DNA of 64,000 bases from Mobula birostris (Eukaryota), in assembly GCF_030028105.1 (NCBI RefSeq), contig NC_092390.1, positions 52,496,777 to 52,560,776 on the forward strand. The letters are read 5' to 3'. Below are positions 1,295 through 60,962 of the stretch, one piece after another. The notes beneath the pieces were generated by a model. That model had not been told where the DNA came from. It made no database searches and saw only the letters and a program-made list of their open reading frames with translations. Position 1 is the first letter of the stretch; each line of letters opens with the position of its first letter. The position numbers and the translations under genes are program-made.

Positions 1295-1975
1295 CACAAG
1301 ACAATAATTCAGGAATAATTAAACCAATATGCAAAAGACAGCGAACTGTGCAAATATAAAAGAAATAGTAATAATAATAAGGTAATAACTATTGAAAACA
1401 TGAAATGAAGATCCTTGAAAGTGACTCCATAAGTTGTGGGCACAATTCAGTGAGGGCACATGTGAAGTTGAGTTAAGTTGTTCCACTGGTTCAAAAGCAT
1501 GATGGTTGAGGAGTAATAACTGTTCCTGAACCTGGTGGTGTGAGTCCTGATGGCAGCAGCAAGAAGAGAGCATGACCTGGGTGGTGGGGTTCCATGATGA
1601 TGCTATCCTGCGACAGTGCTCCATGTAGATGTGCTCAATGGTGGGGAGGGCTTTTTTTTTAATAGGATTTTCCGTTCAAGGGCATTGGTGTTTCCATACC
1701 AGGTCATGATGCAACCAGTCAATATACTCTCCACCACACATCCATGGAAACTGGTCAAAGTTTTAGATGTCATGCCAAATCTTTGCAATCTTCTAAGAAA
1801 TGCTTTCCATGGGTTTACTCTCCTGAAGGATGCTCTCACATCAGCCTCAAAGTAACTGAAGGTTATGGGAGTTTGTGAAGGTTCCTCCATGTTTTGACAG
1901 TCAAAGCAAGTACAGAAGGCACTGAGCTCATCTGGAAGCGAAACCCTGTTGTTACATATGCTTCTGATAACAATC
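1295..1975 (-). mobile_element. Rex1/L2-like LINE 3' fragment
   Basis: ORF 1603..1977 has FLRRLQRFGMTSKTL..CVVESILTGCIMTWYGN, typical of the C-terminus of Rex1/Babar-type RT, followed by a 3' tail. Confidence 0.7.
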
Positions 1976-3274
1976 ACAAATTCACATTGTCCTTATATCA
2001 GTATCTGAAAAGGTTCTTGCATGATTAATTATATTTTTCACCAGTGAATGCCTCTCCAGTTTAATTGAGACTGCAATTAAATTTTACTCACCCAATACAA
2101 AATTAATAATGTTCAAATAAAAATGTTATATTTCAGATCTTCCTTTCTTAGGATCTGGAGAAATAAAGGCATGTCTCAATGTTCAATTAAGATTTTTAAA
2201 AAATACAAGCTTAAATTTATTTGGAAGTGCAAATAAAGATATTTAGACAGCTACATTTTATGAGCCCAGTTTCAAAAATGGGCTGAGATTGGCATTCTGT
2301 ATAACTCTGATGCACCAAAAAGGAATAATCATTAAGCTATTACAGTCAATTCCTGGTTTAGGGTATTTCAGTTAGTTGCTGGAAATTTTCCTAACCCATT
2401 AAACTCATTTTTGGTTTGTTCATTAAATTCAGTTAAATAAAAATTGTCTGAGTCGACATTTGCTCTAATGCAATGCAATTACCATTAAAAAAAATTATAA
2501 ATAAGTGGCTTAACTCTGCTTTTGCCTGAGTATTACGCAGTTGCAGTCTTCCCACTGGGACCAATTGTTTGCCAATGGCCAATTGCTTCCAGTCACGAAA
2601 TGATGCCACAATTACTATTAATGGCTATATTTTTGTTACCTAATCAAATTAAAATCTCAGTAATTCCCAGGAGCCCATCCTTAACCATACTTCTCTGGAA
2701 CTATCCAGGAAATTGCAAGCCATCTGCTACATAGGGATGTAGAAGGCCGCTTGCAAACTATCTCTGTAAATACAGACTAACCTTGTCATGATAATATTTT
2801 GATTTCAATAACCAATTCCAACTGCACAAATTTAATCATCTTTTACAACTAATTCAAAATCATTCTTGTGTATTTTACCAGAAGACAATTGCAGAGTATC
2901 AAATTTATTGAGTTTCATGAAACCTTTCCAGCTTGTGGGATGGGTAGATACGCTCTGGTAAGAAGGATGGGAAGAGGCAAAAGACTAAACTGCCCTGACT
3001 GTAACCAGCAGTTTTGTTCATAACTATCAGTTTTCAGCCATTTAAACTGAGGCATTACTCAATGCTATTCACATGTGCTGAGGGTCTGGGTACAACTATG
3101 AGACTTGAGCTGCTACGAATGCTGTTGAGATTGCACAGCATCACAGTGTAGTACTGCCAATCAGACCCTATGTATGGCCAATACTAATGTAGGATCCAAA
3201 AACCTGCTGACTAATTTAACTTACTGTTTTTGTTTTGGCTTCAATTTTAATACTTTTCAGAATCTATAAATTCC

Positions 3275-3450
3275 TTAGGTCCATAGCTGTAGGAGGAGAA
3301 TTTGACTATTCTGCCTATTGAGCCTGCTTTGCAATTTGATCATAGCTGCTTTATTTCCCCCCACAATTCCATTCTCCTGTCTTCTCCCCTTAACCTTTGA
3401 TCCTTACTAATCAAGAAACTATCAATCTCTGTTTTAAATATACCCAGACA
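3275..3450 (-). mobile_element. CR1 LINE 3' terminal fragment
   Basis: Similar to the CR1 3' ends at 21510 and 28555. Confidence 0.55.
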
Positions 3451-4842
3451 TTAAAAAGCTTAAATAGCATACTTTCTCTGTGTTTGGGGCTAGTTGAGTA
3501 GGCAGGAGGCTAACAAGACAGGCCCTCCAAACCCAGCCTGTAGATGTTTAGGTGTGAGGGGAGCAAGGGGGGCAGTGCCAGTTCTGCACATTCTAGGCAA
3601 AAGTAATATACAGTGGAATATGTAGTGTGACACCGAAGGCGGGAAGCATTTTGTGATCAGTTTAGAATAATATTATATATCCTACTTGGTTTATTAATAT
3701 TGTGATACTTGCAGCTAACGGTGTTAAAAACCACCCGTGGTAATGGCTAATGTGTTAAATGGCTTAAAGCTTGTTTGCTACAGCAACTTGTCATGGTGAC
3801 CGGAAGTTTTAGGACCATGTGTATATAAGATTTTCCACTGCTGGAAAGGACTTTGGAAAGAGATTGTAAGTAATGCCAAGGGCCAAAAGCTAAAACTACC
3901 CTTTCATTCAATGTTGCCAGGAATATTGAACAGCAGAGGAAATGAGAGAATCCTGAATTGCTGGATGACCATTCATTTCTTAGATCAATTGAGTGGACTT
4001 CCCATTTGAACTGTGGTCACAAATGTTATTAAAGGGTTATTGATGATTCTTGCATTTGTTGTCAACTGGGGTCTCCTCTAGCAGTAGGTCTATGGGAGTT
4101 GTATTTCCTTTAATAGGAAACTGTTTTCTCTTTGTTTAATAAAACAACTTTCACAAAGACATTAAATGGATTAGAATAGCATTGCAAACTAGCATTTTGC
4201 AATATATAATTCGAGTGCAATTGAGAAACAGAGGCCTTTAGACATATGTGCTCAGATGTTTAAAGGTGTAAAAGAGACATTAGTAAAATTATTTTCATGC
4301 AAGACTGCATCACAATTCTATTATGACTTTCAAAAGGAACTGGGTAACAGCAAGGGAAAACCTTCGCAAGGCCATCGAAAAAAAGCTGCAGAATGGGATA
4401 AACTGCTAGCACACACTCAATTGGGCAAAGAGCTGCCTCCTGTGCTTGAATAACCATGATTCTACAGAGAGTTTTAAAATCAAGTCATTGTAATTTAGCC
4501 CACTTCCCAACTCAGATAAGAACATTGTTTTATAATTGTGCCATTATAGGGACTACAAAGCAAAGGATTTTGTAAATGGCAAAAAGATATTCTGATTATC
4601 CAAGGAGGCAAAACTGTAATTTTCAAATGATCCCTACACAATTAAAATCTGGCACCACATCTAGATGTTGTGCAGCAAATTACTTTTCAGAAGACAAGTC
4701 TTTCAATATTATGGCACAATGAATACTTAATGCAGATGGTACTCTGGAAGTGATAATATGCCTCATGACTCCTATTATTAGCAAAGGTACTGGCAGAGTA
4801 AATGAGTCAAGCCTATGCATTAGTATTTAGACCAAGAAAATA

Positions 4843-6034
4843 CAGGTTGAGCATCCCTTATCCAAAAAGGGGCCCGAAGTGTTTCGGATTTCAGCATATT
4901 TGCACCTATATAATGAGATACCTTGGGGATAGAACCCAAGCCTAAACATGAAATCTGTTTACATTACATATTCATCTTATGTACAGCTGGCGTGAAGCTC
5001 ACAGAGTGGACAGTCTGACTTGATGGAGCTGAATCCTCCACAGACTGTCAGTTGATTGGCTGCCCACGACCACATATATCATTATTAAGGTATGTATGCA
5101 GTATAGAACTCTGAGATTCGTCTTTTAGAGATAGCCATGAAACAAAGAAAATCATGGAAGTTGTTCAAAGAGAAACAGTAAACCCACCCCCTTGCACAAA
5201 AAATAGAACGGCAACACTATTATCAACCCCAAAAACCCCTTCCCCCACACAAAACTCAACATTAATCCCTACCCCTGCACAAAAAGATTGGAACAAAACA
5301 CAACAAGAAAATCAACTCTCTCCCCCGTACAAAACACAGGAACATCAGCCCACAAACAACCTCCCCACAATAATAACATAATACAAGAACATCAAACCGC
5401 CCTCCCCAACTTAAAAAAAACGAGAAAGAACAGGCGAAAACACAGACTATAAAAGCTGTAAGACTGAAAAAGTCCATGTTCCATAGTCCAAACCATAAAC
5501 GCAGAACTTCGGTAACGTCCTCTGACATCAAAAGAGAGAGACCACTCGAATACAAAAGACCTGTTCTCTGGGCACAATGAGCTGCGATGCAGTGGTAGGC
5601 CACCAGTTTCCTTCTCTGGCAGCAGATATATAAATATGAAGACATATAATATAAATATAGCATAATTTAAATAATTTGTACACAAAACAATTACCTTCCA
5701 TTTTTAAATTTGTGATAGATTACTTGTTTCATGATCAGCATACCATTAAGCAGTTATGTTTACTCCAGCACTAATGAATTCACCCTTTCAATACATGATC
5801 TTCATTTTTCACTTTCTGCAGTGTTTTTCTATTTTTCCATTAATGTCTGTTCATTACATATGTGAGATCACTTCTCAGAACTGTCTGTGGTGCACAGAGA
5901 CCTGTACATTGCCTGGGAACCCTCGTAGCACCTTGTGGAAATTTCCATTTGTGACATTATATCGGTAACCAAAAAAATTTCAAATTTCAGAGATTTTTGG
6001 ATTTTGGAATTTTGGATAAGGGGTACTCAACCTG
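4843..6034. mobile_element. Tigger4/Zombi-like non-autonomous DNA transposon with an internal LINE-tail insertion (~5085-5625)
   Basis: TIRs CAGGTTGAGCATCCCTTATCCAAAA ... TTTTGGATAAGGGGTACTCAACCTG flanked by TA on both sides. Confidence 0.8.
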
Positions 6035-7562
6035 TAATTTATACATAACTCATCAACAATAGAAATCAAGAAAGTGATTGCTCCTCAGCTTAGGGGAGAA
6101 TGCAACATAGAGATACTTTATGATCTTAGATATCTCAATGCAGTACAGTTGAAATAAAGTTGAGACAAAGGATGCAGAATATCAACATTAACAACTTATA
6201 CTTTACTCCAGCAATAACCAGGCCCAGACAAAAGGTAAGTCTGCAATTTAAATGGTCTGACATAGAGCAATCTTGAAAATGACTTTAAAAATGAAGTCAC
6301 TAATAAAAAGTTGAACTATTATTAAAAACCCTTAGAAATAACAATGAAAAAATAACTTCCCCTTTGCTTCCTAAGCCAAAATCTGCAAATAGTACCTTTA
6401 AGATTACCTCATCTACTTTAAAGGACAGGTGAATTTCTCTTTTAAAAGCAAGCCTCTTGCATGCATGACTTCCAGTACTGCACTGAACTACAAACTTAGA
6501 TTACATACTGCAATCTCTGCAACACTGCACTCTCCTAATTATCTAACTATTGTGCAAGTACAAATTGAGCAAAATTTTAACAGGATAAGGATCCCAAAAG
6601 CTTTATTTACTATCCAATAATTAATATTCATAAACAAAGAAGCCATATTCCAGCGAAAAAAAAACAGATCAAAGACACCTCTGGCTAGAATACTACAGAA
6701 AACCCAAACCAAATCTATTAAACCTCAAACCAGAATCCATAAAGAGCATACTTCAAAACATATGACATCCAGTCCTACAAACCACAGAAACAGTAAGTCA
6801 CGGAAAAGATTCTTTTAAAAATCATGAAAGGAATATGCCAGCTGCTATCTGCAAAATATTCCCTCCAAACACCTGGATGGAATGGCAATAAAAGGTACTT
6901 CATGTAAGGTGCTGGAAGAGTTTTGCAGGTCAAATCCATCACAATTTTAACTATGGCAGTCATTCACCATGTACAGTACCGTTAAAAAATATTCACCCTC
7001 CTTGGAAGTTTTCATGTTTTATTGTTTTACAACATTGAATCACAGTGGATTTAATTTGGCTTATTTAATAGTGATCAACAGATAAAGACACTATTGTGTC
7101 AAAGTGAAAACAAATTTCTACAAATTGATATGTTTATTACAATTATTAAACACAAAATTATTGATTGCATAATTACTCACACCCTTCAAGTCAGTATTTA
7201 GTAGGTGCCACTTTGGCAGCAATTACAGCCTTGAGTCTGTGTGGATAGGTCTCTACCAGCTTTGCACATCTGGACACTGTAATTTTACCCCATTCTTCTT
7301 CACAAAACTGCTCCAGCTCTGTCAGATAGCACGGGGATCATGAGTGAACAGCCCTTTTCAAGCCTAACCACAAATTCTCAATTGGATTGAAGCTTGGACT
7401 CAGACTTGGCCACTCCAGCACATTGACTTTACTGTTTTTAAGCCATTCCTGTGTACCTTTGGCTTTATGTTTGGGGTCATTGTCTTGCAGGAAAACAAAT
7501 CTTCTCCCAATTCACACTTCTCTTGCAGACTGCATCAGGTTTTCCTCCAGGATTTCCCTGTA

Positions 7563-8391
7563 CAGGTGCACATTCCCTTATCCAAAATTCTGAAATCCAA
7601 AAAGCTCCAAAAACCAAAGTTTTTTTCGCCAACAGCTGACGTCACTCAGGTGTGACGTGGCAGCACAAGCAGAGGCCGCCAGACGTCAGTTGTGGTTCAG
7701 CGCTTGTACTGGTTACACGTGCATTTGCAGTTCGCTGATATTTTGTGTTCACTGTTGACTTTGTGTCTAATTTCACAGTGAAAATGTCAAAAAGAGCTGC
7801 AGATACCCCTATGGGTAACAATTGGAAAAAGAGAAGGAAGCATCTATCATTATCAATGACACAGAAAGTGGAGTTTTTGCAGAAGCTTGATCATGGTGTG
7901 TCTGTGCGGCGTCTTACTGAAGAAAATAGTGCCAGAACTACCCCACTGTATATGATTTAAATAAACAAAAAGACAAGTTACTGAAGTTTTACAGTGACAG
8001 TGACATTCTACATTTATTCAAATAGTCATTTACCATGTGTTTGATTCGGTTCGTTTGAAGCTGTATATTTTTTATGTTTTATTGAATGTTTTTGTNNNNN
8101 NNNNNNNNNNNNNNNNNNNNNNNNNNNNNNNNNNNNNNNNNNNNNNNNNNNNNNNNNNNNNNNNNNNNNNNNNNNNNNNNNNNNNNNNNNNNNNNNNNNN
8201 NNNNNNNNNNNNNNNNNNNNNNNNNNNNNNNNNNNNNACCGCCGGGTCCTAAAGTCCACTGCACTGAGACCAGTTAAATAAGGGACTTGAGCATACGTAT
8301 TTTTTGGTATCGGGGGTGGGGGGGAGGGGAGGGTTCTGAATTTCCAAATGCAACTGGTCCCAAGGATTTCGGATAAGGGATTGTGAACCTG
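7563..8391 (+). mobile_element. Tigger4-like element with partial CENP-B-type HTH transposase N-terminus, nested in the Tc1
   Basis: TIRs CAGGTGCACATTCCCTTATCC / GGATAAGGGATTGTGAACCTG, TA TSD; peptide MSKRAADTPMGNNWKKRRKHLSLSMTQKVEFLQKLDHGVSVRRL; spans an assembly gap. Confidence 0.8.
8096..8237. other. assembly gap (N run)
   Basis: run of n. Confidence 1.
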
Positions 8392-10254
8392 TATTTTGCT
8401 GCATTCATTTTAGCTTCACAAGCCTTCCAGGGCCCGCTACAGTGAAGCATCCCTAGAGCATGATGCAACCACCATCATGCTTCATGGTAGGGATGGTGTG
8501 TTTTTGATAAATGTGCAGTGTTTGTCTTACACCAAACATGGCATTTAATCTGATGGTCAAAAAGCTCTATTTTGGTTTCATCAGACCATAGAACCTTCTT
8601 CTAGCTGACTTTAAAGTCTCCCACATGCCTTCTGGCAAACTCTAGCCGAGATTTCATTAGAGTTTTTTTTTCCAACAGTGGCTTTTTCTTTGCCACTGGT
8701 GAGCACCCAGGCAACAGTTGATATATGCGCAGTCTCTCCCATTTCAGCCACTGAAAATTGTAACTTCTCCAGAGTTGGCATAAGTCTCTTGATGGCCTCC
8801 TTCACTCATCCCCTTCTTGCACGGTCACTCAGTTTTTGAAGACGGCCTGCTCTAGGCAGATTTATAGCTGTGCTATATTTTTTCCATTTCTGGATGATTG
8901 ACTTAACTGTACTCCACAATCAGTGAGTTGGAAATTTTCTTGTATCTATCCCGACATGTACTTTCCAATAACCTTGGAGTGTTTTGTCTTCATGGTGTAG
9001 CTTTAGCCAAGATACCGACTCACCAGCAGTTGGACCTTCCAGGTACAAGGTGTATTTTTACTACAATCAATTGAAACAACTTGACTGCACATGGTGATCT
9101 CCATTTAACTAATTATGTGACCTCTAAAACCAATTGACTGCACCAGTGATGAGTTGGTGTATCATATTAAAGGTGGTGAATACTTAAGCAATCAATTATT
9201 TTGTGTTGTATATTTCTAATTAATTTAGATCACTTTGTAGATTATGTTTTCACTTTGACACAAAAAAAATCTTTTTCTGTTGATCAGTGTCAAAAATAAC
9301 TAAATTAAATCCATTGTGATTCAACATTGTAAAACAATAAAACATGAAAACTTCCAAGGGGATGAATACTTCTAATAGGCACTGTATATTCAGTATTCTT
9401 GTTTAGTAGGAGCCATTTAATAGGCATGGATAAAGATATTCATATTGATAACATACACCCAAAATTATTCAAAAAATATTCATCAGGACAAATTTGTGTA
9501 TCATCTTCCTTTTTAATTATAATTAAATGAACTGCACTAGTTCCTTTGATTGCAGTTGACATCTTGTCTTCTAGCGGAACAGAACTAAAATAGATTCCAG
9601 AGGAGATAATTTCCCCTCTCTTCCAGAAATGTGTAATTGATCAAAGCAATTGTCAATTTAATATTGGGCATGTCATAGCTTCCTGATCAGCAATCTCCAA
9701 TCTTATTCATCCTACAGCCTAATTAAGATATTCCAAACAGTATCTGTGTTGCACATCTAATCATGCCCATCACTGTTCCTGCTGTAAAAATTTACAAACA
9801 CAATGGAAGCATACCATCCAGTTTATCAAACCTGCACCACACCTGTTGAGATTATGGTTGATCTTTCACCAGGGCTATTCTGTAGGATTATGATCATATC
9901 CCTTGATTTGCTCAATACCCACTCAATCTATCACTCTCCATGTGAGCAACAAATGTGTCAGTGTGAATAAACAAAATCTCAAAAAATAAGCAGTAAACCA
10001 ACCTTTACGCTGGAAACCAACCACATCTCAGTCACTAAATACACATCTGACCACATTATCACAATGGAAAGAGACTGCAAATAAATAGAGATCTCATTGT
10101 TCCTGTGCATGAACCACAAACGGCTAGCAAGCAGATGCTGCTGGTTAAGAGGATAAATATTGATCTTTATTGCAGAGGAAAAGGAAAGCTTTGTTACCAT
10201 TGTACAGGGTGTTAGCGAAGCCAAACTTGGGAGTACCACACATACCTTCAGTTC

Positions 10255-10715
10255 CCTTGCATTGATCTGGAAGCAGGCCAGAAGAGATTCATCAGACCAA
10301 CGCCTGTAATGAGAGGACTGCCCTATCAAGAGAGGTTTGGCAGGTCAGGTCTGTATTCAAGTTTAGGAGAATAAAGGGAGATATAATTATAACATTGCTC
10401 TGAAGGGTACATAACAGGATAGATGTTGAGATGTTTTCACTACTGGGAGTCTCTTTGCTTCTTGATAAGAGATGCACAGAAATTCCATTCTCTTCCCCAA
10501 TACCCTGAGGTTAGAGAGTCTCTGGAATTCTCTACTCCAGAGAATTATGAAGGGTAGTTCATTAGAATTTAAAGTGGAAGTAGATAAAATTTTGGAAGAT
10601 TAGGTGAGGGTTCTGGCACAGAGGAGTTGAGACCTGGGTATAAGAGCCATAATCATACTGAGTAACAGGGCAGGCTTGAGGCCAGGTGATCTACTCCTGC
10701 ATTTATTTTGTATGG
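10255..10715 (+). mobile_element. CR1 LINE 3' fragment
   Basis: Degenerate CR1 ORF2 C-terminus and 3' UTR (…gaggccaggtgatctactcctg). Confidence 0.65.
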
Positions 10716-10921
10716 TATTCTTTAAATTACACCCAGCTAAATTTTAGATTAGTCTTACATCAGCTGTGAGCCTGTTATAAATATGTAATAATCAGTCTCT
10801 CCTCCCCCCCATTTACAGTTATCCATTCTGTAATGTGGTAACAGACTTGCAACCCAACACTTTATTCAATGTTACACAGCACTCCCCAATCACAATCTAA
10901 TCAAAGAGCAACTGTAATTAA

Positions 10922-11111
10922 ACAACAGGAATTCTGCAGATGCTGGAAATTCAAGCAACACTCATCAAAGTTGCTGGTGAACGCAGCAGGCCAGACAGCA
11001 TCTCTAGGAAGAGGTACGATCCTGACGAAGGGTCTCGGCCTGAAACGTCGACTGCACCTCTTCCTAGAGATGCTGCCTGGCCTGCTGCGTTCACCAGCAA
11101 CTTTGATGTGC
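10922..11111 (+). mobile_element. Penelope-derived palindromic mini-element
   Basis: 14-bp TSD GCAACTGTAATTAA (10908-10921 and 11112-11125); 53-bp inverted arms 10963-11015 / 11056-11108 with 1 mismatch. Confidence 0.8.
11018..11053 (+). ncRNA. minimal hammerhead ribozyme motif
   Basis: CTGACGA-AGG(GTCTCGG)CCT-GAAAC-GTC; predicted cleavage after 11049. Confidence 0.55.
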
Positions 11112-12922
11112 GCAACTGTAATTAAGCTGTTTGTTTCTCCACAGTTCAATGCAAATGGCTAGAGCACAAGTAGAAACTGTTAACACCCAAGCTGCAAATT
11201 AAGCGAAACGTTTGCAGGTGTAATTTCTGCTTGTATAGAATACACTGCAACTCAACCATCCACCACCACATCTAAAAGCCAAGAGGTCATATACAGCTCC
11301 ATAAAGTGCTGCTACAAGTTAGAAAATAAAGCTTAGGGCAAATGGGTTACAAATAAAACTAAGGCTGTCTAGCAGAATAACCTGTGCCCTTCAAGGACCA
11401 TCATCTTTCTTGTAATTGTGTAAAGGATTAACTAAGACTCGAGTGTTTGAAACCAAGAAATGCATCTGTTCTTTCAAGTCCATTAGAAAACTATGCAGAC
11501 CGAAGAAATCTCAAGCAGTGTTTTCAAGGATTATAAAATCAGCTTGGCCAAAAAAAGGGTATGGAGTCTGCTAAAAAGATTTTTTGATTATGATGTTCCT
11601 TCATCAGACATATGTTGAAGCTGATCATAAAATAAACACCAATAAAATTCTGTTTTATCTTCTCTTTTGTCTTTCCACTCCCCAACTGGAAAATAACTAA
11701 TTGGTCACAAAGATCTAGAAGTGTCAAGCTATCCTATACAACCTCTTCCAGCATCTCAACAAGGGTGCTCAGGCCAGGCAGCGCAGCTGATAATATCACC
11801 TAGAGGCAGAATAGGAAGCTTAGAAATCATATGCAAGGTTTGCAGATACAAAGCCCAGTTGCTTCTGCAGTAGTTCAACCTAATGAAAACACCTCACACT
11901 GTTCTGGAGGACGAGCATTGTTACCTGAGCAGTTGATTATGTTGTTCAAGTGCCTTCTGGTATATTTTCATCTATAATTACAAAAACCCATTTCTGTAGA
12001 TAGGTTTTCTGCTATTTTCTTCCTCACTTTTCTATTAACTTGTTAATCTTCCAAATCCTAGAATTTATTGACTTTTAAGCAAGTTTCATGCAGATTAACC
12101 CTTTAATATTTTTCAAGAAAGGATTAAGAAAATCAAGCTTACAATTAGTAAGCATCAGGCGAAGTGCCAAATGTCTTATTTTATGTATCTGCATCTGTCT
12201 CCATTGATATGTGTACAATTCAGCACTTAAACCAGAAAGTAATACAGAAACTCTCAAATAAAAAAATCATTTTTATTAATATCTTTTATTGAAATTTTAA
12301 ACATTAAAGTACAAAATAAATGCATATAAGTGAACTTGAAAGGGAAATTTGAGTATGCTTCAACCTCTGAAATAGGTTTATTTACAACTGGTTAAAACAT
12401 GAAGAATTATGGTAGATAGCTATTTGTCATCTTTTCGGTCTTCTTCCACACAAATTCAGATTGGATGTCTGATGAACTTACAGCTAGACCAAGAATCAGC
12501 ATACCTGAGCAGCTGAAACATTTCATACACTGCGATTTTAATAGCTGTTTTTTAACTGATCACTGCTGAAAATTGCGCAGATTTCAATGTTTGAGTCTTC
12601 TATAATTGAACAATGTTACACAGAAAAATGAAAATGAGAGAATATTTCTAATGTAAAAGACCAAGCATTTGTTCTAAGCAACATTGCACAAAAAGATACA
12701 TTTGACATACTGTCTGAGAAAACAAGTAGGCACATTTTTATCAATATGACGTCTATCATCCAACGGATATTGAAAGCTTGGGAGAACAAGATAAAATCAA
12801 TACTAGCTCTGCTAGCAACTGTGTTATCTACTCAACATCAATTTCTTTCGTGAAATTAGAAAAATTAATAAATGTTTGGACAAATGGTAGAAAGGATAAA
12901 AGCCAGCTGAGGAGAAACTCAC

Positions 12923-13139
12923 TTGGGCTTTGTTTCCGCATCTGTCACTTGCCGAATATAGATAGTGTCTTCAGGGTGTTCTATTTCACCTTTTTCATAC
13001 ATGTATGATGATGCTATTGCAATAGCAGAGCCATCATTGCTGAAGGAAAGCGATGCAATACTGGTGGGATAGCGGTGGAACTGACACAATCTTTTCTTAT
13101 TGAAAGGATCCCAGATATTCACAAATCCATCAGAGCCAC
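12923..13139 (-). CDS. BUB3: BUB3 coding exon 6 (gene exon 7; 217 bp). Read-through gives a stop at 12919-12921
   Basis: GSDGFVNIWDPFNKKRLCQFHRYPTSIASLSFSNDG...QVTDAETKPK; tttag acceptor, GTGAGT donor. Confidence 0.97.
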
Positions 13140-14296
13140 CTAAATAAAAAAAAGTTTGCTGTAAATTACTGCTACATTTCTTATACTTAAAACACCGCTT
13201 TAACTATGTCTGTTAGCTTGATTTGATGGCCACCAAGTTATTAAGTTTTTTAATACATTTAAAAGGTCAATATACTGTATTAAATAAGCTCAAGCTTCAT
13301 TTGAAATCCCCATCAGTCTTACTTGAAATCTGGTGCTCTAAATAAAGTGCTTTAGTACAGTATCACTTGTCAAACACAAGAGTTAGAAACTCCCATTTGT
13401 AAAAAATGAAAAATTTCTATCAACCCTGCATAGTTCATCGGTTTTCAATGTAAACCAAGCACTTGCTGCATTTAAGCCGTGACTGCATTGAATGGTAGAG
13501 CAGACTCAAAGGGTCAAATAATTTATTTCTTGTCCAATTTTTTTGCATTTATAGATTTCTAAAATATACACATTTCCACTAATCTCGTGGCTTTCATTTG
13601 CAGACTGAAAGCTATAATTTATAACATTAAGATCAATGGTAAAAACACAGAAACATAACCTAAAAAGGCATCTTAGATATTAAGGTACTGACCAGACATC
13701 TCCAAGGGAAACAAGGGTGAACAATTATTCCAATGATGTCCCATCCCATGAATGAATAAACACAGTATTTCAGACTGCGTTCAGAAATGTTCCCAAATTG
13801 CCCCATCTGCTATAATCTATTTTGTCTTCCAGATCATCAGCATCAAGATCTGTCACTCCAAAAATTAAACAAAGGTTACTTTCAAAGTTATGAGGCTTTT
13901 GTAAATGCTCAAGATGGTTAGTCATCAAGACACTGTTGTCCACCTATTCAGACAAATAAAGAAACAGCAAGGAAACTTGTTTCTGCTCTGGGTACAAATA
14001 ACAATCTGAGTACATTAGATACATTTAAGCAGTTTGGTGAAAATATATCCAAAAGCAAATCATCTTAAATAACTGAAAAATTAAAAACCACACCACCATT
14101 ATTTGCTGGTTACTTTGCTAAAAATCAGTATTTTGTAAATAAATAAAAAGTACTAAAACTTTAAGAAATTGCCCATTAATGTCCTCATTTTGGGAGTCTT
14201 CTTGGAAATTCAGAACTGCCTAAATTGCATAAAGATTGCAATGTGAATAATTCCTGGCTACAAGGCCAGTTGTTTGCAGGCAGCTCTTTCATAATA

Positions 14297-22965: not shown

Positions 22966-23437
22966 CTGCCAGTACTGCCATGATGAGGCTAAACTCAGGT
23001 TGAAGCAGCAACACCTCATAAACCGTCTAGGTAGTCTCCAGCCCTTTGGTATGAACATAGAATTCTCCAACTTCCGGTACTTCCCTCTCCCTCCCTTCCT
23101 CTATCCCTATGTCACTCTGCCCCCTCCTCCAGCTGCCTATCACCTCCCTCATGGTTCTGCCTCCTTCTGCTACCCATTGTGTTTTCCCCTATTCCTTCTT
23201 CAACTTTCCTGCCTATCACCTCCCTGCTTCCCCTCCCCCATCCCTTTATCTTTCCCCTTACTGGTTTTTCACCTGGAACCTACTAGCTTTCTCCTTCCCA
23301 CCCTCCCCCTACCTTCTTTATAGGGCCTCTGCCCCTTTCCTCTACAGTGCTGACGAAGGGTTCCAGCCCAAAACGCCATCTTTTCCACGGATGCTGCCCG
23401 ACCTGCTGAGTTCCTCCAACTTGTTGTGAGTGTTGCT
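22966..23437 (+). mobile_element. Penelope-like element 3' end (GIY-YIG C-terminus plus pseudo-LTR with degenerate hammerhead)
   Basis: AKLRLKQQHLINRLGSLQPFGMNIEFSNFR, pyrimidine-rich tract, then CTGACGAAGGGTTCCAGCCCAAAAC and gatgctgcccgacctgctgagttcctcc. Confidence 0.75.
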
Positions 23438-31625: not shown

Positions 31626-32361
31626 GACTGAAAATGAATCAGCATCATTGTTGCATGAGTGAGAATAACATACCTATAAGCAAAGCACCAAAACATTTGC
31701 AGGTGAATAAAATACAAACACAATACAGTACATACAAATGAAAAATATATGCAAAGACTGGGTGCTAGTCACACGACAAATTCTTGTTATTCTGACTACA
31801 TCATATAAGCTTACACACAGACAATAGATACCAGAACTGTAACCAGGTAGTTTGGAGCTACAACAAAATTCACACAACTCATTCCCTCCCCGCCCGCCAC
31901 ACCCCACTCTGAGGCCAGGGTACTAAAATAAAGGATCAAGTAGAAAAGATATCTGAAACTAAACAATCTAAGCCATGAATGATATTGGAAGCAGTAAACA
32001 GAATTAGAATAAAGACATCAGAAAGGGAAGTTCTACACATGAAATACAGGAAAAACTTGCATCTAACCTGTAAATAAAAATCAAACTATAGATGCTGGAA
32101 ACCTGAAATAAAAAAATAAAACTGCTAAAAATATTCAACAGATCACGCAGAACTATTAAAGGTTCTTTGACCTGAAATGTGAACTCTGTTTCCATTTCCC
32201 CAGATCAGTCTATCTGAAATCTTGATTTTATGTCTTCATTGTAACTTCATAATTTCAGACCAATTTTGTATCTTTCAAAATGTAGTTATTGTTACTACAT
32301 ATTGAGCACTGAAACCAATTTGCACACAAGTCAATTCTCACAAATGCAAACATGATAACCA

Positions 32362-32534
32362 GTAACACACACAAAAAATGCTGGTGAACACAGTAGGCCA
32401 GGCAGCATCTATAGGAAGTGGTACAGTCAACGTTTCGGGCCGAGATCCTTCGTCAGGACTAACTGAAATGCTCACCAGCATTTTTTGTGTGTGTTGCTTG
32501 AATTTCCAGCATCTGCAGATTTCCTCGTGTTTGC
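32362..32534 (-). mobile_element. Penelope-derived mini-element with hammerhead-like motif (32425-32460, minus)
   Basis: TSD ATAACCA (32355-32361, 32535-32541); minus strand AGTC-CTGACGA-AGGATCTCGGCCC-GAAAC-GTT-GACT. Confidence 0.75.
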
Positions 32535-36288: not shown

Positions 36289-38656
36289 TGCTGCCCTATT
36301 TCTGTGGCCATGACCATGATGTCAGAATGGTGTGCTGCCTCCCGAGTGTCAGGATCAAGGTTATCCAAGTAAAAACAAAATACTCTGAAAGGGAAGAGTG
36401 AGTACCCAGAAATCATGATCCACACTTGTGCCAATGACAATCATGCTACAGGCATAACAAAGGTGGAGGAAAGAGAAGAAGGGATTTGCACTCTTAATTA
36501 GGGTCACTTTTTATTACATCACAGCTGTACTTTGGGTATTCTTGGGCGTCATCCAGTGAAGCTATCTAAGTGAAACTTAGAAATGAGATGATCACTTTGA
36601 TGGGATTGTGATGTAGCCCCTCCCCCAATAGTTTATGCATATTGACTGGAATTGCCAGGGTGAAAATGGCTTGGATGGTGTAAAATCTGTTAAATGTGTC
36701 CAGGAAAGTGTGCTACCAGAGGGGGCAACACTGGACAGCCTAATGGGAAATTAGTTTAGGCAAGACACTGAGATATCAGTGGGGGGAGTACAGTACTATG
36801 GGAACAGTGATCACAATTCTTAGTTTTTAAATGATAATAGAAAAATTTCAAAATTTGTCCTATTCTAATTGACAGCAGGCTCACCACCCCAGAAGATTAG
36901 ATCATATGCGATGCAGGATGAGCAAGCCAATTGGTGGAAGGATTCAGAGACTGGTAGTAAAGGAACACACATCAAAGTTGCTTGAATTTCCAGCATCTGC
37001 AGATTTCCTCGTGGTAGTGAAGGGTTGTATTTTGGATTGGAGGATTGAGACCAGTGACCAGTCATGTGCCACAGGAATTGGCACTACATAAACAACCTCT
37101 CTCTTAATGTCAGCAAGACCAAAGAGCTGATTATTGACCAGGAGGAAACTGGAGGTTCATGAGCCAGTCCTCACTGGGAGATCAGAGATGGAGAGGCTCT
37201 TGAACCAGAGGGGATTAACTTCACTTGCTCTATCACTTTCAAGGACTACTCATCTCATGTTCTCCATATTTATTGCTTATTTATTATATATTTTTTGTAT
37301 CTGTACAGTTTGTTGTTTTTTGCACTTTGCCCACAATACAGTGGACAAACAACCAGTCTCTTTCATTGATTCTATTATGGTTCTTGGATTTACTGAGTAT
37401 GCCCACAAAAAAAATGAATCCCAGGGTTATTATTGCAACATGTATGAATTTTTCTAATAAATTTGCTTTGAATTTTGCATCCAGTTTCTTGTCATCTATA
37501 TTGACACTTAGGATGAGAATGTAGTTTGCATGGTCAGTAATTTTGCCAATCACACCAAGATTGATGGCACAATGTACCTAAGATTAAAATGGAATCTGGT
37601 TCAATAGGTGAAGTGAACATTTCGGTGAGCAGCAGAGAATTTAACGCAGACAAGTACAAGAGATTGCACTTGGGCAAGTTTAAACCAGGGTCTTTCACAG
37701 TAAACAATACTCATGAGTACAGGTATATAGTTCCTTGAAAATGAAGGCAAAATTTGGCACAGTCTTTGTCAGTCAGGACTTCAAGCACAGGGATTAGGAC
37801 ACAAGTCTTTTAGGAGACTACATTTTGGAGTATTGTGTGCAATTCTAGTTCCTCAGCTGTAGAATAAGCAGTATGTTACCAGGACTGGATTGCTTGAGTT
37901 ATAAGGAGAGGCTAGACTTCTTTCCCCTGGAGCCTTGGTGGCAAAGGGTAAACGTTGTAAAATCATAACGAGCACAGATAAGCTGCATGGTTTTAGACTG
38001 TTCCCAGGATAGTGATATCAAAAACTAGAGGGCACAGATACAAGATAAGGTAAAAAATTAAAGAGGGACCCAAGGGAAACGTCACCCACAAAGTGGTAGG
38101 TATATAGAATGAACTGCCAATGGAAGCTGTAGAGGTGGGTACAATTATAATATTTAAAAGATATTGACATAGGTAAATAGATCACAAAGGATTGGGAAAT
38201 ATAGGTAAAAAATATAAACAAATGGGAGTAATGGACAAGACGGGCCGAAGGAACAGCTCTACTGTGCAACAATGACTCAAAAGCCATCCAATGGCTGAAA
38301 CAACGGGAATAATAAAAGTAAATAATACCTGACCCAATGCCATTGATTATTATGCAAGATAAAAATCATGCAATGTTACAAGAATGAAGATTGTTGTCAA
38401 ATCTATATTTGTTAAAGGTTTCGCCGAACACCAAACCGTGAGGGCGCCCGTTAAAAGCCAAACATTTATCGGGAAAGTGGCATCAGAGAGTAAAACCAGA
38501 GGCCCGACTCCCACGGACGCGGCCCGCCTCGGCCCTGCGGCCTACACCAGCTCCACCAACGTTAATGGTGCCGACATGGAGAAGCATGAGAGCTTCTCCA
38601 ACACCACCGCCGTACCGAGGGTATATATTAGTCTCATCCCATGCCCATTGACCTAC

Positions 38657-40559: not shown

Positions 40560-40696
40560 GACACGGGAAAATCTGCAGATGCTCGAAATCCAAAGCAACG
40601 CACAAATATTGCCGGAGGAACTCAGCAGGTCAGGCAGCATCTGCGGAAAAGAGTAAACAGTCGACGTTTCGGGCCGAGACCCCTCATCAGGACCGG
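40560..40696 (-). mobile_element. Penelope-derived mini-element
   Basis: Homologous to 10922-11111 and 60826-60962. Confidence 0.75.
40659..40694 (-). ncRNA. minimal hammerhead ribozyme motif with intact core
   Basis: Minus strand GGTC-CTGATGA-GGGGTCTCGGCCC-GAAAC-GTC-GACT; stem I GGUC/GACU, stem II GGG/CCC. Confidence 0.65.
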
Positions 40697-48617: not shown

Positions 48618-48756
48618 NNNNNNNNNNNNNNNNNNNNNNNNNNNNNNNNNNNNNNNNNNNNNNNNNNNNNNNNNNNNNNNNNNNNNNNNNNNNNNNNNNN
48701 NNNNNNNNNNNNNNNNNNNNNNNNNNNNNNNNNNNNNNNNNNNNNNNNNNNNNNNN
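48618..48756. other. assembly gap (N run)
   Basis: run of n. Confidence 1.
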
Positions 48757-60825: not shown

Positions 60826-60962
60826 TAGGTCTGGAAGAAGGGTCACAGCTCGAAACCTCGACTGTATATTCATTCCCATAGATGCTGCCTAACCTGCTGA
60901 GTTCCTCCAGCATTTTGTGTGCGTTGCTTGGGATTTCCAGCAAATGCAGAATTTCTCGTGTG
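60826..60962 (+). mobile_element. Penelope-derived mini-element with degenerate hammerhead core
   Basis: ctggaagaagggtcacagctcgaaacctcgactg...gatgctgcctaacctgctgagttcctccagcattttgtgtg. Confidence 0.7.

What the first reader, a model, noticed from the sequence alone, without database searches (positions are those of the whole stretch)
10908..11125. Young palindromic mini-retroelement with a hammerhead ribozyme core in the loop of a 53-bp hairpin
Seen: a 190-bp insertion with a perfect 14-bp TSD; two 53-bp inverted arms (1 mismatch) enclose CTGACGA-stem II-GAAAC-GTC. Known: Penelope-like elements carry minimal hammerheads whose helix III is a short palindrome (here ACGU) and which are thought to cleave as dimers. 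Inference: this is either a non-autonomous, retrozyme-like family mobilised by the Penelope RT, or the inverted-pLTR insertion product typical of PLEs. The long hairpin extends helix I in this copy. It lies just upstream, in BUB3 sense, of an AATAAA at ~10861-10866, so it could place a dsRNA hairpin in a long BUB3 3' UTR.
Basis: partly seen in the sequence, partly recalled or inferred. Interest (0 to 1): 0.7.

Follow-up and report, generated by a model that had tools for sequence, protein, structure and literature searches.

The report
Truncated, inverted Penelope retrotransposon insertion
This 190-base hairpin is a real, recent insertion of two back-to-back stubs of the end of a very common Penelope-type jumping gene, likely made once when both cut DNA strands were copied from the element's RNA, so it is an ordinary by-product rather than a self-copying ribozyme element, and it lies beyond where the neighbouring BUB3 transcript appears to end.

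Summary
In detail: 14-bp TSD, 53-bp arms with one mismatch, a minimal hammerhead core, and an empty site in two related organisms. The insertion is two head-to-head 5'-truncated ends of a Neptune-type Penelope-like element (at least 66,864 end matches; a pLTR-ORF-pLTR copy with RT and GIY-YIG found). Its inner junction is unique in the genome and 49 sampled inverted copies give 48 different junctions, so it is not a propagating family. Inverted pLTR plus one-sided tail plus TSD is published anatomy. Here 49 of 50 inverted copies carry the tail at exactly one end, and in 22 of 49 (and this copy) neither arm contains the other, which favours two cDNAs primed from both nicks over fold-back. Copies stop preferentially at the hammerhead's 5' edge (19 of 82), not at the cut site (2 of 96). 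In this copy helix I has two mismatches, no tandem partner exists, and the core is antisense to BUB3, whose spliced contigs stop at 12.3-12.4 kb, over 1.1 kb short of the insert. The scan reached this reading many times before on other DNA, in this and other genomes.

The parts
10908..10921 (.). Left copy of the 14-bp target-site duplication
   Evidence: single copy at the empty site in runs X19 and X20
10920..11017 (-). Tailed arm: PLE pseudo-LTR end, element positions +5 to about +103 relative to the predicted cut; the outer 2 bases are shared with the TSD
   Evidence: 94.9% to the L061 copy; 1-2 differences from the closest sampled copies
10920..10954 (-). The about 35-nt PLE 'tail' (positions about +68 to +103), present on this arm only; in the full-length copy it runs on into the ORF
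   Evidence: limits approximate
11018..11019 (.). Two junction bases (GA) that match neither arm's continuation; junction unique in the genome
   Evidence: the perfect helix-I junction of the same length occurs 106 times
11020..11111 (+). Tail-less arm: PLE pseudo-LTR end, positions -29 to about +62, carrying the hammerhead core
   Evidence: 97.8%; 11020-11110 is 100% identical to at least five sampled copies
11020..11054 (+). Minimal type I hammerhead motif: helix I 5' strand damaged, core CUGACGA 11022-11028, bulged A, stem II 11030-11041, GAAA, ACGU palindrome 11045-11048, predicted cut between 11049 and 11050
   Evidence: matches the min-HHR description in PMC4209133; cleavage not tested
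10963..11015 (.). Left 53-bp hairpin arm
11056..11108 (.). Right 53-bp hairpin arm
11112..11125 (.). Right copy of the target-site duplication
10861..10866 (-).
   Evidence: three other AATAAA lie upstream at 12382, 12290, 12277 and one at 12069
12309..13141 (-). Last exon of the neighbouring WD40 gene (BUB3 by recalled motifs): coding to a stop at 12924-12922, then about 0.5-0.6 kb of 3' UTR

Best explanation
The insert is a one-off, heavily 5'-truncated, inverted copy of the end of an abundant Penelope-like retrotransposon, likely formed when the element's endonuclease made a staggered cut 14 bp apart and its reverse transcriptase likely primed a short cDNA from each cut strand. Shown: the two arms are head-to-head copies of the pseudo-LTR end; one ends at the tail end (+103) and one at the tail-less end (about +62); the TSD and empty site; full-length parents with RT and GIY-YIG; one tail per inverted insertion. 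[quoted passage not shown] The hairpin is then automatic, because both arms copy the same 60 bases. The hammerhead is a passenger: predicted inactive here (no tandem partner for helix III, two mismatches in helix I, antisense to BUB3).
For: 30,510 exact matches to the 31-nt core and 66,864 to a 32-nt stretch downstream. Upstream sequence runs into GIY-YIG (Pfam E 2e-4, below gathering) and RT (RVT_1 E 1.3e-5, below gathering); L202 is pLTR-tail-ORF-pLTR with YIDD, a CxxxxCxxC linker and YIGET. 3' ends of 100 tail-anchored arms fall in two groups, 46 at +55 to +79 and 54 at +89 to +104. Of 50 inverted insertions, 49 have exactly one tailed end (p 5e-14 against one half) and 43 have an 11-18-bp TSD (random control 1 of 150). 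In 22 of 49 the tail-less arm reaches at least 8 nt further 5' than the tailed arm, so neither arm can be copied from the other; this copy is of that kind. Arms share source variants above chance at 3 of 4 sites (26 of 29, 23 of 28, 27 of 28). 5' stops: 19 of 82 in -32 to -26 against 2.2 expected (p 6e-13); genome-wide 10,241 core matches lose the native base at -30, -31 or -32 against 41,242 that keep it, and 73 of 90 inspected are truncations by script. Literature: inverted pLTR, one-sided 30-40-bp tail and TSD (PMC8557442, PMC3846280); purified Anolis PLE protein cuts and extends both strands and starts RT at two internal sites that bound the tail (PMC11167929).
Against: No biochemistry or RNA ends were available, so double priming and an RNA start at -31 to -29 are inferred from insertion shapes. 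The fourth variant site (stem II) shows no significant sharing between arms (13 of 18, expected 0.63, p 0.28), and this copy's own arms differ at three places, two of them variant sites, so the arms may come from two RNAs or have mutated since. In vitro the Anolis protein showed no strand difference in start site, so the strict one-tail rule is not explained by that paper. The stop site at the hammerhead edge also looks like a 3' splice site (pyrimidine tract plus AG), and Drosophila Penelope has an intron ending there. The 50 inverted copies come from one chromosome end (C1, first 8 Mb) and from loci chosen by exact matches, so they lean young.
Confidence: 0.82

Rival explanations
1. A distinct non-autonomous, retrozyme-like palindromic family that is transcribed and re-inserted as a unit by the PLE enzyme.
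For: Short hairpins with a whole core in the loop are common: 9 of 50 sampled inverted insertions, scaling to about 4,700 (1,900-9,300) in the genome. One junction type recurs 106 times. Animal retrozymes are reported to derive from PLE pLTRs (bioRxiv 10.64898/2026.07.22.740005).
Against: This junction is unique; 48 distinct junction pairs in 49. In 30 of the 106 recurrent-junction copies the tail is on the core arm in 14 and on the other arm in 16, and both source variants occur (18 and 11), as expected for repeated independent joining at the 4-nt helix I homology. No tandem arrangement here.
Confidence: 0.05
2. Fold-back self-priming: one nucleic-acid strand folds back and is copied, giving the palindrome (the self-priming idea of PMC3846280).
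For: Arms share source variants (29 of 30). Helix I gives a built-in 4-nt inverted homology and that junction recurs 106 times. In 19 of 49 the tailed arm contains the other.
Against: In 22 of 49, and in this copy, each arm holds sequence the other lacks, by up to 829 nt; in 16 of 30 helix-I-junction copies the tail is on the arm without the core. A copied arm cannot hold what its template lacks.
Confidence: 0.08
3. The hairpin sits in a long BUB3 3' UTR and acts as double-stranded RNA (editing, small RNAs, decay).
For: The minus strand folds as stably (-129.1 kcal/mol) and an AATAAA lies 42 bases beyond the TSD. A minor long isoform cannot be excluded with contigs.
Against: The insert is absent in two related organisms. 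The core is not on this strand. An AT-rich window holds many AATAAA (8 or more AATAAA/ATTAAA in 3.4 kb).
Confidence: 0.05

Closest known systems
EN+ Penelope-like elements with an inverted 5'-truncated pLTR, one-sided 30-40-bp tail and TSD (Adineta Pen2a, PMC3846280; overview PMC8557442 Fig. 2; D. virilis Penelope, PMC2377424)
   Same: Head-to-head inverted pLTR copies, tail at one end only, TSD, hammerhead in the pLTR, parent with RT and C-terminal GIY-YIG.
   Different: Here both copies are cut to about 95 nt with no ORF; TSD 14 bp (11-18 in the sample) against 8-10 bp in the Adineta passages read; copy number in the tens of thousands.
[quoted passage not shown]
   Same: Core CUGANGA and GAAA, extra base after A9, 4-5-bp native helix I, no helix III but a palindrome at 15.2-16.2; that paper also reports pairs on opposite strands 100-700 bp apart and mostly single motifs from truncated PLEs.
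   Different: In this copy helix I is broken at positions 3 and 6 and is continued by a 53-bp stem; stem II is short (3-4 bp).
Non-LTR retrozymes (bioRxiv 10.64898/2026.07.22.740005)
   Same: Non-coding, type I hammerhead, derived from a PLE pLTR.
   Different: Retrozymes are direct tandem repeats with a hammerhead in each unit; this is a single inverted pair with one core and a private junction.
L1 twin priming (recalled; PMC2837659 seen as search listing only)
   Same: Both target strands prime cDNA, giving an inversion flanked by a TSD.
   Different: In L1 the inverted part is a different, upstream stretch of the RNA (recalled); here both arms copy the same pLTR end from two start sites about 35 nt apart, so a hairpin results.

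Membership tests
EN+ Penelope-like element (insertion derived from) | [quoted passage not shown] | tested here: met
   L202, L061, L062: RVT_1 E 1.3e-5 and GIY-YIG E 2e-4, both just under Pfam gathering scores; motifs. The sampled copies are frameshifted.
EN+ Penelope-like element (insertion derived from) | Partial-tandem pseudo-LTRs flanking the ORF | tested here: met
   L202 and L214 have an upstream pLTR running into the ORF and a downstream pLTR; 2 of 20 long copies fetched
EN+ Penelope-like element (insertion derived from) | [quoted passage not shown] | tested here: met
   two 3'-end classes about 35 nt apart; 49 of 50 inverted insertions one-sided
EN+ Penelope-like element (insertion derived from) | Variable 5' truncation and inverted 5' copies with TSD | tested here: met
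   5' starts from +22 to beyond -1500; TSD 11-18 bp in 43 of 50
Neptune/Nematis clades of PLE | [quoted passage not shown] | tested here: met
   CxxxxCxxC in L062 and L202
Neptune clade of PLE | RT phylogeny places it in Neptune | not tested
   no reference PLE proteins were on hand; no tree built
Minimal hammerhead (min-HHR) | Conserved core with bulged base after A9 and palindromic 15.2-16.2 | tested here: met
   description
Minimal hammerhead (min-HHR) | Intact 4-5-bp helix I | tested here: not met
   this copy pairs as ||x||x; the parent pLTR pairs 5 of 5
Minimal hammerhead (min-HHR) | Self-cleavage as a dimer | not testable with these tools
   indirect only: 14 of 39 rare direct-duplication joints end at the predicted cut, but 19 of 23 control joints pile up at +6/+7 where no cut is predicted
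Non-LTR retrozyme | At least two consecutive direct units each with a complete hammerhead | tested here: not met
   one core; other copies in the window are 12 kb or more away
Non-autonomous family (SINE- or retrozyme-like) | Many copies share both ends and internal junction | tested here: not met
   junction unique; 48 distinct pairs in 49
Non-LTR retrozyme | Circular RNA of unit length | not testable with these tools
   only assembled contigs were served
MITE / DNA transposon | Terminal inverted repeats at both ends and fixed short TSD | tested here: not met
   the left end carries about 42 unpaired bases before the arm; TSD 11-18 bp; arm lengths vary to over 1 kb

The most novel reading that the evidence does not exclude
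These hairpins are a large natural record of how Penelope-like elements integrate: an enzyme dimer primes both strands of a 13-14-bp staggered cut, obligatorily using the tailed start site on one strand and the tail-less one on the other, on RNA whose 5' end sits at the base of hammerhead helix I; rare direct duplications ending at the cut site would be captured cleavage products, showing that the minimal hammerhead cuts in vivo.
Probability: 0.45. Interest if true: 0.6.

Novelty: new member of a known kind. Interest (0 to 1): 0.3.

Why it matters
The single insertion matters little: it is one of roughly 15,000 short inverted stubs estimated in this genome and probably does nothing to BUB3. 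The class matters modestly. Reviews say the origin of PLE inverted repeats and tails is still undefined (PMC8557442). The strict one-tail rule and the non-nested arms decide between fold-back and double priming on genomic evidence and give exact predictions for the in vitro system of PMC11167929. Such stubs also mimic miRNA hairpins and MITEs in annotation.

Tried and rejected
Rfam scan of 9000-13000 at E up to 10: no hammerhead family; mir-3926 and mir-1288 matches are far below gathering and reflect the hairpin. Cleavage-site truncation: no excess of 5' stops at the cut (2 of 96), so cleaved RNA is not the usual template. Shared 5' exon or cap-derived G at the hammerhead edge: upstream sequence is heterogeneous in 58 listed arms and 90 loci; not supported, not excluded. 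Cut-site joints as proof of cleavage: 14 of 39 (13 loci) end at the cut, but the control window shows 19 of 23 at +6/+7; suggestive only. Core conservation against flanks: old copies keep helix I and core recognisably but are decayed (25 listed); no statistic was computed, since inserted copies evolve neutrally. The look-up of sequencing runs listed no run on record as RNA; the laid runs are guessed RNA with spliced contigs, and the lack of cover at 11130-12000 is not itself evidence. Look-up of earlier findings by sequence returned nothing. Literature searches listed no paper that counts tail pairing, non-nested arms or stops at the hammerhead edge; the library lacks most subscription papers (including Evgen'ev and Arkhipova 2005 and Arkhipova 2006) and Repbase/Dfam were not searchable, so absence from print is not shown. 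Supplements were not read; those of PMC4209133 and PMC11167929 (Fig. S2) may bear on tail ends and hammerhead lists.

Full report
1. Observation. The sequence is as described. A 14-bp direct repeat lies at 10908-10921 and 11112-11125 with 190 bp between. Arms 10963-11015 and 11056-11108 are 53 bp with one mismatch at 10995 and enclose a 40-nt loop; the fold is -127.2 kcal/mol, z -14.8, 0 of 200 shuffles. The loop holds CTGACGA (11022), a short stem II and GAAAC-GTC (11042-11049). In two related organisms a single contig crosses the site without the insert: X19 runs 10414-10907 directly into 11112-11553 and X20 10414-10895 into 11112-11782. So the insert is real, lineage-restricted and made the duplication. 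Its right arm is identical over 91 nt to at least five sampled copies and the left differs by 1-2 bases from the closest, so 'young' is fair. Rfam has no hammerhead match at E up to 10, as expected for a motif without helix III.

2. What it is. The genome (4.0 Gb) holds 30,510 exact matches to the 31-nt core and 66,864 to a 32-nt stretch just downstream. In the first 30 core loci the upstream sequence is cut at many places and in long copies runs into coding sequence. That sequence scores as GIY-YIG (E 2e-4) and RT (RVT_1, E 1.3e-5), both just under Pfam's cut-offs. Of 20 long copies fetched, L202 and L214 show pLTR, tail, ORF, pLTR; L202 has YIDD, a CxxxxCxxC linker and YIGET. The linker motif marks Neptune and Nematis clades (PMC8557442, passages); no tree was built. 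Numbering from the predicted cut (+1 = first base after GUC), the insert is an antisense copy of +103 to +5, two extra bases, and a sense copy of -29 to about +62. It is two head-to-head stubs of the PLE end, one with the tail and one without. That this repeat is typical of cartilaginous fishes is recalled, not tested.

3. Family or by-product. The exact junction occurs once in the genome. The 29 other best BLAST loci have differing junctions and their own TSDs. In a sample from the first 8 Mb of C1 (109 merged stretches, 513 kb), 49 one-tailed inverted insertions give 48 distinct pairs of inner ends. The same-length junction that uses the 4-nt helix I homology occurs 106 times, but in 30 of these the tail is on the core arm in 14 and on the other in 16, with both source variants: repeated independent joining, not descent. 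Hairpins with a whole core in the loop were 9 of 50 inverted insertions; the 7 in the complete 100-anchor interval scale to about 4,700 (1,900-9,300), and all inverted stubs up to 300 bp to about 14,700 (exact-match, so young copies only).

4. How it likely formed. All 100 exact tail anchors in C1:1-5.07 Mb were mapped. 3' ends fall in two groups about 35 nt apart, 46 short and 54 long. Of 50 inverted insertions 49 have one long and one short end (p 5e-14); the exception has no TSD. TSDs of 11-18 bp were found in 43 of 50 inverted and 10-17 bp in 25 of 60 simple insertions, against 1 of 150 random sites. In 22 of 49 the tail-less arm reaches at least 8 nt further 5', in 19 the tailed arm does, 8 are within 7 nt. 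In the first class, which includes this copy, each arm holds sequence the other lacks, so neither can be a fold-back copy of the other; this argues against self-priming (proposed in PMC3846280, passages) as the general route. Arms share source variants at three sites (26 of 29, 23 of 28, 27 of 28) but not significantly at a fourth (13 of 18), pointing mostly to one source RNA; this copy's arms differ at two variant sites and one private base. Purified Anolis PLE protein cuts and extends both strands, is predicted to be a dimer, and starts reverse transcription at two internal sites that bound the tail (PMC11167929, parts 1-2 of 4 read). The simplest reading is one cDNA from each nick, one from each start site, joined at their ends. 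That step is inferred.

5. The hammerhead. The motif fits the min-HHR of PLE pLTRs, which showed no cleavage as a single motif and low cleavage as dimers (PMC4209133, parts 1-2 of 4 read); in the Anolis element cleavage needed protein and was not required for insertion. Native helix I is AGUC:GACU plus a U-G pair; in this copy the 5' strand reads GAUC, giving ||x||x before the long stem. Forcing the open-core fold costs 5.7 kcal/mol here, 4.1-5.1 in four perfect-junction copies and 8.7 in the parent pLTR context, so the hairpin helps the frame but the copy still lacks a partner for helix III; other copies in the window are 12 kb or more away. 5' stops do not favour the cut site (2 of 96) but pile up at -32 to -26 (19 of 82, 2.2 expected, p 6e-13). 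Genome-wide, 2,256, 3,995 and 3,990 core matches lose the native base at -30, -31 and -32 against 41,242 that keep all three; of 90 inspected, 73 were truncations by script (one of them looks like another subfamily by eye), 14 point changes, 3 other subfamilies. This copy's right arm starts at -29. No shared upstream exon or consistent extra G was seen. A transcript start at the base of helix I is the simplest cause; a 3' splice site at the same place, as in Drosophila Penelope, or an RT stop remain open. Following a lead from earlier notes I counted rare direct duplications that restart at the hammerhead edge: 14 of 39 hits (13 loci) end exactly at the cut, but in the control window 19 of 23 end at +6/+7. 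In vivo cutting is suggested, not shown.

6. BUB3. The neighbouring gene is on the minus strand; its last coding exon (13141-12922) is WD40, RAE1-like by search and BUB3 by recalled motifs. The hammerhead is on the plus strand, so a BUB3 transcript would carry its antisense, which has no core. Contigs from six guessed-RNA runs of three studies are spliced at 13141, read through the stop and end at 12322, 12343, 12395, 12422, 12333 and 12309, beside AATAAA at 12382, 12290 and 12277, while two DNA-like runs continue. It puts the main 3' end over 1.1 kb before the insert. A minor long isoform is not excluded.

7. Comparison and novelty. Inverted pLTR, one-sided tail and TSD are described (PMC3846280, PMC8557442, PMC2377424, PMC8969392; passages), and min-HHR pairs on opposite strands from truncated PLEs were noted in 2014. 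It fails the retrozyme definition of tandem units each with a hammerhead (bioRxiv 10.64898/2026.07.22.740005, part 1 of 5 and passages). Six literature searches listed no paper quantifying the one-tail rule, non-nested arms or the stop at the hammerhead edge, but key subscription papers and repeat databases were out of reach. Earlier notes of this scan report the same reading many times (451 notes holding all my search words in at least 39 genomes, 176 in this genome); they are unchecked AI notes and not independent support, and my counts were made before I read them.

8. Verdict. A real, young, one-off stub of a known kind of element; mechanism most likely double priming (confidence 0.82 for the whole account, higher for the identity than for the priming step). 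Interest 0.3: ordinary as a locus, useful as a class.

Noticed in passing
window 32361-32533: A second inverted insertion of the same family: tail-less arm on the minus strand (-38 to +68) joined to a tailed arm (+39 to +103), with an 11-bp TSD with one mismatch seen by eye.
   Followed up: partly
window 22974-23413, 36977-37009, 40569-40693, 60834-60956: Older or shorter copies of related PLE subfamilies (72-97% to the reference copy), two starting at the hammerhead edge.
   Followed up: partly
window 12309-13141, minus strand: The BUB3-like gene ends by reading through a possible donor site to an immediate stop after KPK, with no further coding exon in the contigs; 3' UTR about 0.5-0.6 kb.
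   Followed up: partly
L202:5864-5880 and L222, L237, L241: A pyrimidine tract followed by AG sits directly before the hammerhead in young and older subfamilies, resembling a 3' splice site; the same bases also fit an initiator consensus (recalled).
   Followed up: partly
G000 hits (e.g. C4:178772338, C20:43420441): Short direct duplications that restart at the hammerhead's 5' edge end at +6/+7, just past helix I, in 19 of 23 hits; may reflect the RT hopping across the base of a folded helix I.
   Followed up: no
G000:C17, seven RT hits with identical score; L221:525-2321: One PLE copy repeated seven times on C17 beside an ORF with a P-loop and leucine-rich end (NLR-like by eye): a segmental duplication cluster.
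   Followed up: no
window 10983-11088: The hairpin draws sub-threshold Rfam miRNA matches (mir-3926, mir-1288); such stubs could be mis-annotated as miRNA precursors.
   Followed up: no
window 8096-8237 and 48618-48756: Two runs of N; neither touches the finding.
   Followed up: no
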